A program made the position numbers and the translations under genes. A stretch of DNA of 64,000 nt from Escherichia coli (GTDB lineage Bacteria > Pseudomonadota > Gammaproteobacteria > Enterobacterales > Enterobacteriaceae). The notes beneath the pieces were generated by a model. That model saw only the letters and a program-made list of their open reading frames with translations. It did no database searches and was not told where the DNA came from. The stretch lies in the NCBI RefSeq assembly GCF_002854065.1, contig NZ_CP024147.1. One strand, 5' to 3'. Shown one piece after another: positions 43,256-48,603 of this stretch; within the stretch, counting starts at the first letter, position 1; every line of letters begins with the position of its first letter.

Positions 43256-44308
43256 TTAAGCCTGCGGCTGAGTTACAACGTCTTTGATGCCTTTAACTTC
43301 GATCTCTACGCGACGATCCGGAGCCAGGCAGTCGATCAATGCAGCACGCTGTTTCACGTTGTCACAGGTGTTGCCAGTAACCGGGTTGGATTCGCCCATA
43401 CCACGTGCGGAGATCTTGTCTGCCGGGATACCTTTAGAGATCAGGTAATCAACAACAGACTGAGCACGGCGCTCGGACAGACCCTGGTTGTAAGCGTCAG
43501 AACCGATGCGGTCGGTGTAACCCAGAACAACTACGGAACCGTCTTTCGGATCCAAGTTGCTCAGCTGGCTGTACAGCTGATCCAGAGCAGCCTGACCTTC
43601 CGGTTTCAGGGTAGCTTTGTTGAAGTTGAACAGAACGTCAGACTTCAGAGTGAAGTGCTTGGTCTGTACTTCCGGTGCTGGAGCTGGAGCCGGAGCAACT
43701 ACCGGAGCTGCTTCGCCCTGACCGAAACGGTAGGAAACACCCAGGCTCAGCAGGCCGTTGTCCGGACGAGTGCCGATGGTGTGTGCGTCACCGATGTTGT
43801 TGGTCCACTGGTATTCCAGACGGGTAGCGATTTCAGGAGTGATCGCGTACTCAACACCGCCAGCGAAGACCGGAGAAACGCCGGTGTCGTGGTCTTTAGT
43901 GGATACCCCACCAGGTACGTTAGACTTGGTGTCTGCACGCCATACCATACCACCCAGACGAGTGTAAACGTCCAGATCGTCAGTGATTGGGTAACCCAGT
44001 TTAGCGGTCAGCTGAACGCCCTGAGCTTTGTAAGCGCCGTTGATGTTGTCGCCTTTGTACGGCATACGACCTAACCAGTCGTAACCCATTTCAAAGCCAA
44101 CATACGGGTTAACCTGGTAACCACCAAAAGCACCAGCGCCCAGTTGGTTTTCATGGGTCGGGCCATTGTTGTCGATGAAACCAGTGTCATGGAACTGGGA
44201 CCAGCCCAGTTTAGCACCAGTGTACCAGGTGTTATCTTTCGGAGCGGCCTGCGCTACGGTAGCGAAACCAGCCAGTGCCACTGCAATCGCGATAGCTGTC
44301 TTTTTCAT
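43256..44308 (-). CDS. ompA: Outer membrane protein A precursor, 350 aa variant allele
   Basis: ATG at 44306-44308 gives [21 protein letters not shown]; Pro-Ala hinge [14 protein letters not shown]; OmpA-like C-terminal domain; track ORF extends 24 codons upstream. Confidence 0.96.
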
Positions 44309-44441
44309 TTTTTGCGCCTCGTTATCATCCAAAATACGCCATGAATATCTCCAACGAGATAACACGGTTAAATCCTTCACCGGGGGATCTGCTCAATATT
44401 AACTCTACCGATATCTTCGGCTTATGCCGAGCACCCCTGGC
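44309..44441 (-). promoter_or_regulatory. ompA long 5' untranslated leader with promoter immediately upstream
   Basis: Non-coding region upstream of ompA ATG; ~133-nt leader length is from recall. Confidence 0.5.
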
Positions 44442-44664
44442 GATGTAAAGTCTACAACGTAGTTGAAAACTTACAAGTATGAACTCCGTCAGGCATATGA
44501 AAAAAAAGTCTTGTATAAGGTATGTTTAATCTTTTTTGTCAGCGACAATTTACAGAAGAAAATCGCGGAAACCGCTTCAGACAAGCCTCCGCAAGGAAAA
44601 TTAGTCACGACTGAAAGCATTGGCTGGGCGACAAAAAAAGTTCCAGGATTAATCCTAAATTTAC

Positions 44665-45174
44665 TTAATGATACAAATTAGAGTGAATTTTTAGCCCGGA
44701 AAGTTGTCTCGTTGCGTGAGAGGATGCGCTTACCGGACGCATAATAAACCCCATCGCGTTACCTTCATTTGCCGCATCAACAAGTTCAGCATGCTCTTCT
44801 TCAGTCAAATCATCTGCCAACCAACCGATCACCACACTGTAATTGCCCGTGCGTAAAGCGCGAACCATTGACTCCACAGTGTGGCAAGGGGGGAGCTGGC
44901 TAATCTGCATTACTTTCGTTAAGGGTAGCCCAGATGCCTGAACCCATTCCCGACTCAGTTTTTGTTGCGGTGTTAACCAGAGTTGCCAGCGCGATTGCTG
45001 ACCGAGTTGCTGTAACAATGGCAACAGTAGAAGTTGCGTCATCATGGGCTGATCTTCGCGATAGACAACTTCACTGATAAGCCCGGCTGTAGTGTTTTCC
45101 GTAGAGACACGCGCAATTTTACTTGCTGCGGATGAGAACGACGAAGAACGATGTGCATAGCCTGAAGTGTACAT
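44665..45174 (-). CDS. sulA: SOS cell division inhibitor SulA, 169 aa
   Basis: ATG at 45172-45174 gives [25 protein letters not shown]... Confidence 0.93.
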
Positions 45175-45196
45175 AATCAATCCAGCCCCTGTGAGT

Positions 45197-45216
45197 TACT
45201 GTATGGATATACAGTA
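45197..45216. promoter_or_regulatory. LexA operator (SOS box) at sulA promoter
   Basis: TACTGTATGGATATACAGTA fits CTGT-N8-ACAG, 23 bp upstream of sulA start. Confidence 0.7.
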
Positions 45217-45335
45217 CATCCAGTGACAACAAAGATCAACCCTATTTTCGGAAAGAGCCTCGCAAATTTTGTCGTTGGTGACGGGAAAACATAAATTAAT
45301 CTTGCCCCTTAAGAATAAGTTGCCTATTTTCGTAG

Positions 45336-45351
45336 TTAACGGATCCGTTAA
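45336..45351. promoter_or_regulatory. 16-bp perfect palindrome in the sxy leader/promoter
   Basis: TTAACGGATCCGTTAA, 42 bp upstream of sxy ATG. Confidence 0.35.
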
Positions 45352-45392
45352 TGTGAATCATTCTTTTATGTTATGATTTTAAAAGGAATTTT

Positions 45393-46022
45393 ATGAAAAG
45401 CCTCTCCTATAAGCGGATCTATAAATCACAAGAATACCTGGCAACGTTGGGCACAATTGAATACCGATCATTGTTTGGCAGTTACAGCCTGACCGTTGAC
45501 GACACGGTGTTTGCGATGGTTTCTGATGGTGAGTTGTATCTTCGGGCTTGTGAGCAAAGTGCACAGTACTGTGTAAAACATCCGCCTGTCTGGCTGACAT
45601 ATAAAAAGTGTGGCCGATCCGTTACCCTCAATTACTATCGGGTTGATGAAAGTCTATGGCGAAATCAACTGAAGCTGGTGCGTCTGTCGAAATATTCTCT
45701 CGATGCAGCGCTGAAAGAGAAAAGCACGCGCAATACCCGGGAAAGACTGAAAGATTTGCCCAATATGTCTTTTCATCTGGAAGCGATTCTCGGGGAGGTG
45801 GGGATTAAGGATGTACGGGCGTTACGTATACTTGGGGCAAAAATGTGTTGGTTGCGACTGCGGCAGCAAAACAGTCTGGTGACAGAAAAGATTCTGTTTA
45901 TGCTTGAAGGTGCCATTATCGGCATTCATGAAGCTGCGCTCCCGGTGGCACGCCGCCAGGAGCTTGCAGAATGGGCTGACTCTCTTACGCCGAAACAGGA
46001 GTTTCCTGCGGAACTTGAGTAA
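45393..46022 (+). CDS. sxy: Competence regulator Sxy/TfoX, 209 aa
   Basis: MKSLSYKRIYKSQEYLATLGTIEYRSLFGSYSL... TfoX N- and C-terminal domains. Confidence 0.9.
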   Translation: MKSLSYKRIYKSQEYLATLGTIEYRSLFGSYSLTVDDTVFAMVSDGELYLRACEQSAQYCVKHPPVWLTYKKCGRSVTLNYYRVDESLWRNQLKLVRLSKYSLDAALKEKSTRNTRERLKDLPNMSFHLEAILGEVGIKDVRALRILGAKMCWLRLRQQNSLVTEKILFMLEGAIIGIHEAALPVARRQELAEWADSLTPKQEFPAELE

Positions 46023-48138
46023 TCTGGCGTTGCAGACGACCAATCTCAGGCAGTAATGCAATCAATAACCCAACTTGTTGTACGACCAGAGGTTCTTTGC
46101 TGTCTGCCCGTGGTTCAAGTTGCTGCATCCGCTGTTTCAGGCCAGCTAATGCCTGATTGACGCGTTCTTCATCAGCAGGTTGATGATGTAACGCGTCATC
46201 AACATAGCAAACTGCGTCATCAAGAAACGCCAGAATTTCAGGATTAGTTAACTGCTCCCGGTGAGCACCGAGGGCTGAGATATAGCTGGTAAACGTATGG
46301 TTAAGGCACAGCAACCGAAACGCGGCTTCGCGAATTTGCGGGGTAACGTTCGGTTCGCTGGACATATTTGATACCACCGACGCCAGTTCAGCATCACGGT
46401 TGTGTGCATCGCGGCGGGCAATACGATACGCAAGACGGTTATCACGCCCCTGATGGTATTGCTCCAGTATGGCATCGAGATAGCGACAGTTGGCCTCTGT
46501 GGCGCGTTCGAGCATGCGCGGCAGATTGCGAAACTGCCAGTCAGGCCAGATGTAGCTCACTGCCGCCCACGCAATGGCACAACCAATCAGCGTATCGATT
46601 ACGCGAGGTAACGCTACTTCAAAACCTTCACCCAGTAAGTTAAAACACAGTAGCACCAAAAGTGTGATGAACATCGTTGCATGAGCGTATTGCACGTTAC
46701 GGAAGGCAAAAAAGAGCACGCCGGTAATAACCAGCAGCACCAGCTGCCCTTCCAGTGATGGCACAAACCACAGCACAGGAATGCCAATGGCGATACCTAC
46801 CAGCGTACCAATAATCCTTAACTTCAGGCGGTGGCGCGTGGCGTTATAGTTTGGCTGGCAGACAAACAAACTTGTCAGCAAGATCCAATACCCGTGATGC
46901 ATTCCGGTTATTTGAATGATGGCGTAGCCGAAGCACAACACCAGCGACATTCTTACCGCATGACGGAAGAGGGCGGATTCCGGCGTGAAGTGACGGCTAA
47001 GACGCAGCCAGATATCACTCAATCCGTGCGGGCTGTCATCAGCGAGCTCATTTTCGTCATTATTATGGGGCAGTGCCTGGGCCTGTTCTGATTCAATTGT
47101 TGCCAGTTGGGCATCAATGGCGCGTAAATTGTTCAGCAAAAATCCCAGTATTTTGAGTAAATCGGCAGGCGCGCCGTTATCGCGCATCCGCTCCAGGGCA
47201 GCATCAATATGCGTAAAAGCGCGCTCAAAATGCGGATCATGTTGATAAGGCTGACGCAGCAAAATACAGCGTGACAGTTGCTGGCACGCCTGGCCCTGCA
47301 TCGACATCAGCCGCTGAAAACGGAACAGCACGTCGCTGTGGCGAAAATGTTCACGCAATGTTTGATACTGAATATGAGAAGAGCTGGCACGCTCGTGAAT
47401 ATCCTGTGCGACAAAGTAATAATGCAGCGTGCGACGCGTTCCCCGTTGACCACGATCGCCACGTAAGCGGGTCAGCAGCGAGAGTTTCGTCTGATTCAAT
47501 GTCGCCATCAGCTGACCGTTGGCGAGAGCCAAATCGTACAGCGGTGCCTGGCTTTCATCTTCAATATCAGGATCAAACATGCGCGACTTGAGCTCAAGAT
47601 AACGCGCCAGTTGTTCATAGCAACGCGCCAGGTTGTCCTGCAGCGGGCGGACCGGGAACAGCAGATGACCAATAAGTGTCAGGACGTTGTACCAGACGGC
47701 ACCAGCCAGCAGATACATCGGCTGCTGATACCAGTGCTCATACAGTGATGTTCCCAACATAGTGTAAATGGCGATCAGCAATGCACCGAAGGCAATTGTT
47801 GCATAGCGTTGACCCAGACCGCCGAGCAAAATGAAGCCGCTGGTAGAGAGCGTTAAGCCAATCGCAAATAGCCAGGGCCAGGGAAACAGCAATTCTACTG
47901 AGGCCGAGGCGATAAAAAAGCAGAACAGCGTAATGATGAGGTTACGCAAACGTCCCGCCAGTCGGTCATCGAGATCGGTCAGCGCCGCTGCCACCATCCC
48001 CAGCGTCAGCGGAATCGTCAGTTTTACATCACCCAGCCACCACGGAAACGCTGTGGTTCCACAAAGCGCAATAAAAATACGCGCGTAATACAGCCAGGCG
48101 CTGTTCCATGTATAGCGTTTGAGCAAAGGACTTAGCAT
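45985..48138 (-). CDS. yccS: Inner membrane protein YccS (FUSC family), 717 aa from internal ATG
   Basis: Large polytopic membrane protein; ATG at 48136-48138, alternative ATG three codons upstream at 48147. Confidence 0.82.
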   Translation of the reverse strand: MLSPLLKRYTWNSAWLYYARIFIALCGTTAFPWWLGDVKLTIPLTLGMVAAALTDLDDRLAGRLRNLIITLFCFFIASASVELLFPWPWLFAIGLTLSTSGFILLGGLGQRYATIAFGALLIAIYTMLGTSLYEHWYQQPMYLLAGAVWYNVLTLIGHLLFPVRPLQDNLARCYEQLARYLELKSRMFDPDIEDESQAPLYDLALANGQLMATLNQTKLSLLTRLRGDRGQRGTRRTLHYYFVAQDIHERASSSHIQYQTLREHFRHSDVLFRFQRLMSMQGQACQQLSRCILLRQPYQHDPHFERAFTHIDAALERMRDNGAPADLLKILGFLLNNLRAIDAQLATIESEQAQALPHNNDENELADDSPHGLSDIWLRLSRHFTPESALFRHAVRMSLVLCFGYAIIQITGMHHGYWILLTSLFVCQPNYNATRHRLKLRIIGTLVGIAIGIPVLWFVPSLEGQLVLLVITGVLFFAFRNVQYAHATMFITLLVLLCFNLLGEGFEVALPRVIDTLIGCAIAWAAVSYIWPDWQFRNLPRMLERATEANCRYLDAILEQYHQGRDNRLAYRIARRDAHNRDAELASVVSNMSSEPNVTPQIREAAFRLLCLNHTFTSYISALGAHREQLTNPEILAFLDDAVCYVDDALHHQPADEERVNQALAGLKQRMQQLEPRADSKEPLVVQQVGLLIALLPEIGRLQRQITQVPQETPVSA

Positions 48139-48156
48139 AAAGGCCATATTAGTGGA

Positions 48157-48603
48157 TTATTCAAAACGACGACGTGCATTGGCTTCACGCGCAGCTTGCG
48201 CTGTTTCTACCGATACCACGCGACGACCAACCGGCCATAGTGCAATAGCGGCAATTTTAAAGTTCGCAATGCCGACAGGAATGCCAATGATTGAAATACA
48301 TTGTGCGATGCCCGTTGCAATGTGCATCAGGCATAACCACCAGCCAAAGAAAATCAGCCAGAAAATATTCAATACCGTACCGCCAGTATTCAGCAGCACA
48401 TTTTTGCCAGCCGGGTTCAGTTCATCGACATGAATAGCTTCATTGCCATAAGGCACCAGAGACAGTTTAGTGATCTCCCAGCAGGATCGTGTCAGCGGTA
48501 AGGTAAAAATCAGCACAATACTGACCAGAGTCGCCAACAGCCAGCCCAGAGTGGTGGCAAATCCGCCAAGCACAAAGTTCAGAATGTTCAAAACGGTACG
48601 CAT
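48157..48603 (-). CDS. yccF: Inner membrane protein YccF, 148 aa
   Basis: Small hydrophobic protein immediately upstream of yccS in the same orientation. Confidence 0.85.
   Translation of the reverse strand: MRTVLNILNFVLGGFATTLGWLLATLVSIVLIFTLPLTRSCWEITKLSLVPYGNEAIHVDELNPAGKNVLLNTGGTVLNIFWLIFFGWWLCLMHIATGIAQCISIIGIPVGIANFKIAAIALWPVGRRVVSVETAQAAREANARRRFE

What the first reader, a model, noticed from the sequence alone, without database searches (positions are those of the whole stretch)
45985..46022. Convergent sxy and yccS coding regions overlap by 38 bp at their 3' ends
The sxy stop is at 46022 and the yccS stop at 45985, so their transcripts must be complementary over the overlap and whatever 3' UTR follows. 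This leaves no room for a terminator between them and allows antisense interference or transcriptional collision affecting the competence regulator.
Basis: seen in the sequence. Interest (0 to 1): 0.3.

Follow-up and report, generated by a model that had tools for sequence, protein, structure and literature searches.

The report
Known sxy–yccS tail-to-tail gene overlap
The ends of the E. coli genes sxy and yccS really do overlap by 38 bases on opposite strands, but this is an ordinary, already annotated and already catalogued arrangement made by two unconserved protein tails, and no effect on the competence regulator has been shown.

Summary

It is not surprising. The conserved cores of the two proteins lie only 55 bp apart, and about 81% of random 55-bp spacers would give an overlap. 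The overlap encodes only the unconserved tails beyond the Pfam domains. Its length drifts between genera (4-47 bp). Its phase is the commonest one for convergent overlaps.

The pair is already published as converging operons (Conway 2014) and as a convergent "excludon" (ExcludonFinder 2025).

"No room for a terminator" is only literally true: a conserved GC-rich stem-loop (45938-45963) lies inside the sxy coding region, 22 nt past the yccS stop, and is followed by a C-rich, G-poor stretch. This is the published anatomy of Rho-dependent 3' ends. I infer that it forms the yccFS mRNA end, which would make the RNA overlap about 88 nt or more.

Any regulation of Sxy by yccFS transcription remains untested.

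The parts
45393..46022 (+). sxy (tfoX) coding sequence, 209 aa. The TfoX_C domain ends at residue 194; residues 198-209 and the stop lie in the overlap.
45985..48147 (-). yccS coding sequence (FUSC-family putative transporter, 720 aa from the first ATG). The Pfam match ends at residue 685; residues 709-720 and the stop lie in the overlap.
45985..46022 (.). 38-bp convergent CDS overlap, phase 123:132. No significant RNA structure (z -0.6 and -1.6).
45975..46029 (.). 55-bp spacer between the conserved protein cores (Sxy ...EL..W194 and YccS LLPEI..LQ). Its length is the same in 20 of 21 loci. It holds both unconserved tails and both stops, whose positions drift.
45938..45963 (-). Conserved GC-rich stem-loop (11-pair stem, 4-nt loop) inside sxy codons 182-191, starting 22 nt downstream of the yccS stop. 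It has no U-tract on either strand. It is the candidate 3'-end stem-loop of the yccF-yccS mRNA; the strand assignment is tentative.
45737..45924 (-). C-rich, G-poor (rut-like) stretch on the yccS-sense strand, peaking at C 40% / G 12% at 45777-45854. The composition is conserved in 12 of 13 species.
48157..48603 (-). yccF, the upstream gene of the yccF-yccS operon whose transcription converges on sxy.
46492..46660 (+). Unconserved candidate region for the sxy transcript end inside antisense yccS: a local hairpin at 46492-46527 (-17.5 kcal/mol), then a C-rich window at 46553-46660. A weaker hairpin lies at 46174-46209. There is no synonymous-site signal here, so this is speculative.

Best explanation
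This is an ordinary tail-to-tail overlap of two real genes. Shown: the conserved cores of Sxy and YccS sit 55 bp apart. Each ORF reads on through an unconserved C-terminal tail to the first in-frame stop, and the two tails with their stops need 48 + 45 nt, so they overlap by 38 bp. The arrangement is old, being present in every Enterobacteriaceae genus recovered, but the stop positions drift. Follows directly from the coordinates: any complete sxy mRNA and any complete yccFS mRNA are complementary at their 3' ends. Inferred: neither gene has an intrinsic terminator. The yccFS transcript most likely passes its stop, forms the conserved stem-loop at 45963-45938, is terminated by Rho on the C-rich tract further inside antisense sxy, and is trimmed back to the stem-loop, giving about 88 nt of obligatory complementarity (45935-46022). 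The sxy transcript has no conserved end signal and probably runs diffusely into antisense yccS. Antisense pairing with RNase III cleavage, or polymerase collision, is therefore possible. It is probably weak, as for most of the many convergent overlaps in E. coli. The confidence given applies to the whole package; the descriptive part (ordinary, chance-expected, already catalogued overlap) is near certain, and the Rho-dependent stem-loop role for yccFS is about even odds.
For: Coordinates and annotation. The locus is present in 5425 of 5426 complete E. coli genomes. The overlap lies beyond the Pfam domain ends. An overlap exists in every genus recovered: 38 bp in Escherichia (41 in E. albertii), 14 in Salmonella, 11/23/32/47 in Citrobacter, 35 in Intestinirhabdus, 44 in Enterobacter/Lelliottia and 4 in Yokenella, with a 55-bp core spacing in 20 of 21 loci. 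Null model: 81% of random spacers overlap. The phase 123:132 is the commonest for convergent overlaps of 5 nt or more, and 58 convergent overlaps were counted in E. coli (PMC2174442). There is no intrinsic terminator and no significant structure in the overlap. [quoted passage not shown] Stem-loop: -18.1 (+) and -19.5 (-) kcal/mol. It is the only helix RNAalifold predicts in an 18-species alignment. 86.9% of cells are paired against 31-63% when the partners are slid, and 3 pairs show compensatory changes. Synonymous codon identity is 0.68-0.69 at sxy codons 176-190 against 0.49 overall. The hairpin is more stable on the - strand in 14 of 18 species. It is the top hairpin in the 300 nt after the yccS stop in Salmonella, Lelliottia and Intestinirhabdus, and Yokenella has a different hairpin at the same place. 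The C-rich tract is described. The match to Rho-dependent 3'-end anatomy comes from PMC6061677.
Against: No 3'-end mapping for either gene could be retrieved; the held supplements of two 3'-end or full-length studies contain no sxy, yccS or yccF entries. The stem-loop lies in the most conserved part of TfoX_C, so amino-acid constraint explains part of its conservation. Covariation is modest (covariation term near 0; the slide -3 control has the same covariation score). The strand cannot be assigned firmly, since both strands fold stably. The C-rich tract may simply reflect G-rich sxy codons. The ExcludonFinder calls rest on a coverage threshold and may be noisy for weakly expressed genes.
Confidence: 0.5

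Rival explanations
1. A functional convergent excludon. The zero-gap arrangement is kept by selection so that yccFS transcription represses sxy, and the reverse, through polymerase collision or RNase III cleavage of the 3' duplex. This would contribute to the silence of E. coli sxy in the laboratory.
For: The overlap and the 55-bp spacing persist across all genera sampled. The pair is listed as an excludon in at least 50% of 58 RNA-seq samples. The embedded stem-loop forces the yccFS RNA to cover the sxy 3' end. There is a validated precedent in E. coli: mscL-arfA 3' overlap with RNase III (PMC10070815). No natural inducing condition for sxy is known (PMC3330819).
Against: The overlap is what chance predicts for this spacing, and its length and sequence are not conserved. 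75% of convergent operons in E. coli overlap at the RNA level without known function. No reciprocal expression data exist for this pair. Known Sxy control (CRP-S autoregulation, protein-level control) does not invoke it.
Confidence: 0.12
2. The conserved stem-loop acts in the sxy mRNA (+ strand) or at the DNA level, for example as a stability or translation-pausing element near the end of the sxy ORF. It has nothing to do with yccS.
For: The + strand also folds at -18.1 kcal/mol, z -2.1. Several G.U pairs (columns 12-21 and 14-19) pair only on the + strand. sxy is known to be controlled by mRNA structure in H. influenzae, though at the 5' end (PMC2248739). Synonymous constraint is also high at sxy codons 1-15.
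Against: The - strand is more stable in 14 of 18 species, and 91.9% against 86.9% of cells are paired. The position just after the yccS stop, followed by a C-rich tract on that strand, fits a 3'-end element. A hairpin 57 nt before the sxy stop has no obvious role.
Confidence: 0.15
3. Nothing beyond coding constraint. The hairpin and the C-rich tract are by-products of the conserved ALPxxRRQEL and glycine-rich helix-hairpin-helix protein sequence and of GC-rich codons. Both transcripts end diffusely.
For: The helix lies in invariant residues. Most stem pairs never vary, and the RNAalifold covariation term is near 0. Shuffle controls are known to be inflated by relatedness.
Against: The non-preferred codons CTC (L183) and GAG (E190) are kept in 17 of 18 species at paired positions (the codon-preference statement rests on general knowledge of E. 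coli codon usage). Compensatory changes occur at 3 pairs, including Lelliottia A.C to A-U. Yokenella lost the helix but carries another stable hairpin at the same site. Synonymous identity peaks here but nowhere comparable in the 1 kb of yccS examined.
Confidence: 0.2

Closest known systems
Convergent (tail-to-tail) overlapping CDS pairs in prokaryotes (Lillo & Krakauer 2007, PMC2174442)
   Same: The genes are on opposite strands and overlap at their 3' ends. The phase is 123:132, the commonest for overlaps of 5 nt or more. The origin is consistent with stop-codon drift. This pair is one of about 58 in E. coli.
   Different: Nothing essential. At 38 bp it is longer than the very common 4-bp class, but it is within the normal range.
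Convergent excludons / overlapping convergent operons in E. coli (Conway 2014, PMC4161252; Sanmartin 2025, PMC12288877)
   Same: The pair is explicitly shown as converging operons and is listed as a convergent excludon. It lacks a terminator between the genes.
   Different: Mutually exclusive expression and RNase III processing, which give the excludon its meaning, have not been shown for this pair.
mscL-arfA 3' overlap in E. coli and Enterobacteriaceae (Morra 2023, PMC10070815)
   Same: Tail-to-tail genes whose 3' CDS or UTR overlap, with an overlap length that varies between genera.
   Different: For mscL-arfA, antisense regulation and RNase III cleavage were demonstrated experimentally. Here nothing has been tested.
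Rho-dependent 3' ends with a protective stem-loop (Dar & Sorek 2018, PMC6061677)
   Same: A stable stem-loop without a U-tract, followed by C-over-G enrichment. Such ends may lie inside a downstream gene's coding region.
   Different: No 3' end or bicyclomycin sensitivity has been mapped here. The element sits inside the convergent neighbour's conserved domain.

Membership tests
Convergent overlapping CDS pair | Two protein-coding genes on opposite strands whose 3' ends share nucleotides | tested here: met
   45985-46022 is shared.
Convergent overlapping CDS pair | Both ORFs are real genes rather than mispredictions | tested here: met
   Pfam TfoX_N/TfoX_C and FUSC-like/FUSC_2/FUSC. Orthologues are in synteny in 22 loci.
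Convergent excludon | Transcripts of the two neighbouring genes overlap in vivo | not testable with these tools
   Taken from the literature only: PMC12288877 Table 1 and PMC4161252 figure legend.
Convergent excludon | Expression of one gene lowers the other (mutually exclusive expression) | not tested
   No data were found; only two papers in the searchable library mention both genes.
Convergent excludon | The duplex is processed by RNase III or detected as dsRNA | not testable with these tools
   p19 data were uninformative for convergent pairs according to the authors.
Intrinsic (bidirectional) terminator | A GC-rich hairpin followed by a U-tract on the transcribed strand or strands | tested here: not met
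   No hit near the overlap. The 45938-45963 hairpin is followed by GCAGCUUCAUGAAU on the - strand and UUGCAGAAUGGG on the + strand.
Rho-dependent 3' end with protective stem-loop | An energetically stable stem-loop not followed by a U-rich tract, just downstream of the gene | tested here: met
   -19.5 to -20.2 kcal/mol, below the 1st percentile of the local background. It is conserved.
Rho-dependent 3' end with protective stem-loop | C-over-G enrichment (rut-like) downstream of the stem-loop | tested here: met
   C/G up to 3.4-3.6 at 45777-45854. It falls in the top 1.5% or better of windows in 12 of 13 species.
Rho-dependent 3' end with protective stem-loop | A mapped steady-state 3' end at the stem base, with readthrough on Rho inhibition | not testable with these tools
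   Held supplements had no entry for these genes.
Known RNA family (Rfam) | A match at the gathering score | tested here: not met
   The only hits in the window are the PyrD leader and one tRNA, both elsewhere.

The most novel reading that the evidence does not exclude
The yccF-yccS operon keeps its 3'-end stem-loop and Rho-loading tract inside the sxy coding sequence. Every yccFS transcript is then an antisense RNA to the last 90-250 nt of sxy. This conserved arrangement would form a real excludon that helps keep the E. coli competence regulator silent, or couples it to an envelope signal, which is an unexplored layer of the unsolved question of what induces sxy.
Probability: 0.1. Interest if true: 0.5.

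Novelty: already known. Interest (0 to 1): 0.15.

Why it matters
As stated, it matters little. The overlap is in every E. coli annotation, the pair is already listed among hundreds of overlapping convergent transcription units, and the geometry is what chance predicts.

The modest added value is the embedded, conserved stem-loop plus C-rich tract. It shows how a gene pair with no intergenic space can still form a defined 3' end inside the neighbour's coding sequence. It also gives a concrete, cheap test of whether yccFS transcription touches Sxy, whose natural induction signal in E. coli is still unknown (PMC3330819).

Tried and rejected
- **Intrinsic terminator in or next to the overlap:** none found. 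The small hairpin inside the overlap (45991-46012) is not significant (z -0.6 and -1.6) and is not conserved.
- **Published 3' ends:** the held supplements of Adams 2021 (eLife) and SMRT-Cappable-seq contain no sxy, yccS or yccF entries and no nearby coordinates. No supplements are held as text for Dar & Sorek 2018, Conway 2014 or ExcludonFinder. Ju et al. 2019 is not held.
- **A conserved sxy 3'-end element inside yccS:** no synonymous-site peak coincides with the E. coli hairpins at 46174-46209 or 46492-46527. It is kept only as a speculative part.
- **Rfam:** no family at the locus.
- **The overlap as a statistically unusual feature:** rejected by simulation.
- **Taxa beyond core Enterobacteriaceae (Klebsiella, Yersinia, Serratia, Vibrio):** not recovered by the single genome-contig scan or among the top 120 homologues. 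I judged a second large search not worth the cost.
- **My motif search for the YccS core:** it failed in E. fergusonii and Yokenella. Their overlaps (38 and 4 bp) come from the gene calls.

Full report
**1. The observation**

The window is E. coli chromosome, with the gene order matP-ompA-sulA-sxy-yccS-yccF-helD.
- The sxy ORF is 45393..46022 on the + strand (209 aa, TAA).
- The yccS ORF is 45985..48147 on the - strand (720 aa from the first ATG, TAA).
- They share 45985..46022, which is 38 bp including both stop codons.
- RefSeq annotation of an identical chromosome has the same geometry.
- The 1-kb junction is found at 90% identity or more in 5425 of 5426 complete E. coli genomes, and at 99% or more in 5409.
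- Both frames are real. Sxy matches TfoX_N (residues 14-106) and TfoX_C (116-194). YccS matches FUSC-like, FUSC_2 and FUSC, the last up to residue 685.

**2. What the overlap is made of**

The overlap encodes Sxy residues 198-209 and YccS residues 709-720. Both stretches lie beyond the Pfam domains.

I recovered 22 orthologous loci. They cover Escherichia clades, E. albertii, E. fergusonii, Salmonella, nine Citrobacter, Intestinirhabdus, Enterobacter, Lelliottia and Yokenella.
- In every locus where both gene ends could be read, the genes are convergent and overlap.
- The overlap length differs: 38, 41, 14, 11, 23, 32, 47, 35, 44 and 4 bp.
- The last conserved residues are ...EL..W194 in Sxy and LLPEI..LQ in YccS. 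They are exactly 55 bp apart in 20 of 21 loci and 49 bp apart in C. koseri.
- Both stops always fall inside this spacer, but at drifting positions. The Sxy tail is 6-15 aa and the YccS tail is 12-17 aa. The tail sequences are not conserved.
- All overlaps in the 21 loci with a measured spacer are 2 mod 3, which is phase 123:132. Yokenella, at 4 bp, is the exception. Lillo & Krakauer found this the commonest phase for convergent overlaps of 5 nt or more (49%). They counted 58 convergent overlaps in E. coli and attributed such overlaps to stop-codon mutation (PMC2174442).

**3. Chance**

I kept the real flanks and replaced the 55-bp spacer with random sequence of window composition, or with shuffles of itself.
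- 80-81% of trials gave an overlap.
- 71% gave an overlap of at least 38 bp, and the median was 92 bp.
- Only 19% gave no overlap, and only 30% placed both stops inside the spacer.

The overlap is therefore what chance predicts once the cores are this close. If anything is under selection, it is short tails: both stops stay in the spacer in all species. The overlap itself need not be selected.

**4. Consequence for transcripts**

A complete mRNA for each gene must contain the 38 nt, so complementarity is unavoidable whenever both genes are transcribed.
- A consensus scan finds no intrinsic terminator near the junction.
- The overlap and its flanks fold no better than shuffles (z -0.5 to -1.6).
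- No Rfam family maps here.

This is already in the literature.
- Conway et al. [quoted passage not shown] They report that 276 of 370 convergent operons overlap, by 286 nt on average (PMC4161252).
- ExcludonFinder (2025) lists sxy-yccS among 165 convergent excludons detected in at least 50% of 58 MG1655 RNA-seq samples (PMC12288877).
- The same authors say that dsRNA (p19) validation was not feasible for convergent pairs.

**5.

The junction alignment shows a near-invariant GC-rich inverted repeat at 45938-45963: GCTCCCGGTGG-CACG-CCGCCAGGAGC. It covers sxy codons 182-191 and lies outside the CDS overlap. On the - strand it starts 22 nt after the yccS stop.

Stability:
- It folds at -18.1 kcal/mol on the + strand and -19.5 on the - strand (z -2.1 and -2.6).
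- It lies below the 1st percentile of 36-nt windows in the neighbourhood. It is the only such hairpin in the 700 nt downstream of the yccS stop.

Conservation:
- RNAalifold on 18 species predicts this helix and nothing else in 141 columns.
- 86.9% of cells pair, against 31-63% when the partners are slid. Three pairs show double changes, including 14-19 G-C/A-U (5 sequences each) and an A.C mismatch in one Lelliottia that is A-U in another.
- Synonymous codon identity in sxy is 0.49 overall. It rises to 0.68-0.69 at codons 176-190. No comparable peak coincides with any candidate hairpin in the last 1 kb of yccS, where the mean is 0.45 and the SD 0.09.
- CTC (L183) and GAG (E190) occupy paired positions and are kept in 17 of 18 species. 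That they are non-preferred codons in E. coli is my own general knowledge.
- Yokenella has lost this helix but carries a different -16.9 kcal/mol hairpin at the same place. In Salmonella, Lelliottia and Intestinirhabdus the conserved helix (-21 to -27 kcal/mol) is by far the strongest within 300 nt after the yccS stop.

Strand:
- The - strand version is more stable in 14 of 18 species, and 91.9% against 86.9% of cells are paired.
- Neither strand has a U-tract after the stem.

What follows the stem on the - strand:
- The hairpin is followed by a C-rich, G-poor stretch at 45737-45924, peaking at C 40% / G 12%. Only about 6% of background windows reach the cut-off used.
- The composition recurs in 12 of 13 species, in the top 1.5% or better of local windows.

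Dar & Sorek 2018 showed that Rho-dependent E. coli transcripts end just after stable stem-loops that lack U-tracts. Such ends show C-over-G enrichment downstream, and they occur even inside downstream coding regions (PMC6061677). The anatomy here matches. I therefore infer that the yccFS mRNA ends at about 45935 after Rho termination and trimming. That would give roughly 88 nt of obligatory complementarity with sxy mRNA.

This is inference. No mapped 3' end could be retrieved. The helix also lies in the most conserved residues of TfoX_C, so protein constraint accounts for part of the signal.

**6. The sxy side**

After the sxy stop, the + strand has no C-rich window until 46553-46660. It has only unconserved hairpins, at 46174-46209 and 46492-46527. 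The sxy transcript probably runs some hundreds of nucleotides antisense into yccS without a dedicated signal. This too is inference.

**7. Does it regulate Sxy?**

Nothing tests this.
- The closest validated analogue is mscL-arfA. There, a 3' overlap whose length also varies among Enterobacteriaceae mediates RNase III-dependent antisense control (PMC10070815).
- In favour of the idea, the natural signal that induces E. coli sxy is unknown (PMC3330819).
- Against it, overlapping convergent transcription is the majority condition in E. coli. The overlap is what chance predicts. Known Sxy control (CRP-S autoregulation, N-terminal contacts with CRP; PMC6728893) does not require it.
- I put a real regulatory role at about 0.1.

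**8. Verdict**

The phrase 'no room for a terminator' needs correcting. There is no room between the genes, but a probable 3'-end element lies inside the neighbour's coding region.

The feature itself is already known and ordinary. The embedded stem-loop is a small new detail of a known kind.

Noticed in passing
window 45938-45963 (with 45737-45924): A conserved GC-rich stem-loop lies inside the sxy coding sequence, just past the yccS stop on the opposite strand. It shows synonymous-site constraint and some compensatory changes, and is followed by a conserved C-rich, G-poor tract. It is probably the Rho-dependent 3'-end structure of yccFS mRNA.
   Followed up: yes
window 45393-45437 (sxy codons 1-15): Synonymous codon identity across genera is highest here (0.72-0.77 against 0.49 overall). 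This suggests a conserved mRNA element at the start of sxy, reminiscent of the 5' structure that controls sxy translation in H. influenzae (PMC2248739).
   Followed up: no
window 44665-45392 (sulA and the sulA-sxy intergenic region), + strand: Conway 2014 report a stationary-phase antisense transcription unit covering sulA. It is on the same strand as sxy and directly upstream of it, so it could read into sxy. I did not examine this.
   Followed up: no
window 45393-48603 and 43256-45180: sxy is a lone + strand gene wedged between - strand units (yccF-yccS upstream, sulA-ompA downstream). Readthrough of yccFS would be antisense to the whole of sxy and would reach the sulA promoter. The geometry resembles a non-contiguous operon, but ExcludonFinder does not list it as one.
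   Followed up: partly
L022 (NZ_VLXZ01000190.1, 276 bp): A 276-bp, coverage-1 contig in an Alkalicoccobacillus porphyridii (Bacillota) assembly is 99% identical to E. coli sxy. It is almost certainly contamination of that assembly.
   Followed up: no
window 48139-48147: The yccS start differs between annotations. The first ATG gives 720 aa here and in PGAP. Gene calls in Salmonella and E. fergusonii give 717 aa.
   Followed up: no
window 28943-29016 (+) and 55883-55967 (-): The only Rfam hits in the window are a PyrD leader and one tRNA. Both are unrelated to the finding.
   Followed up: no
L024 (E. fergusonii sxy): E. fergusonii Sxy is only 69% identical to the E. coli protein. That is less than Salmonella Sxy (76%), and it contrasts with E. 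albertii at 90%. The 38-bp overlap length is nevertheless kept. This could reflect fast evolution or replacement of sxy in that species.
   Followed up: no
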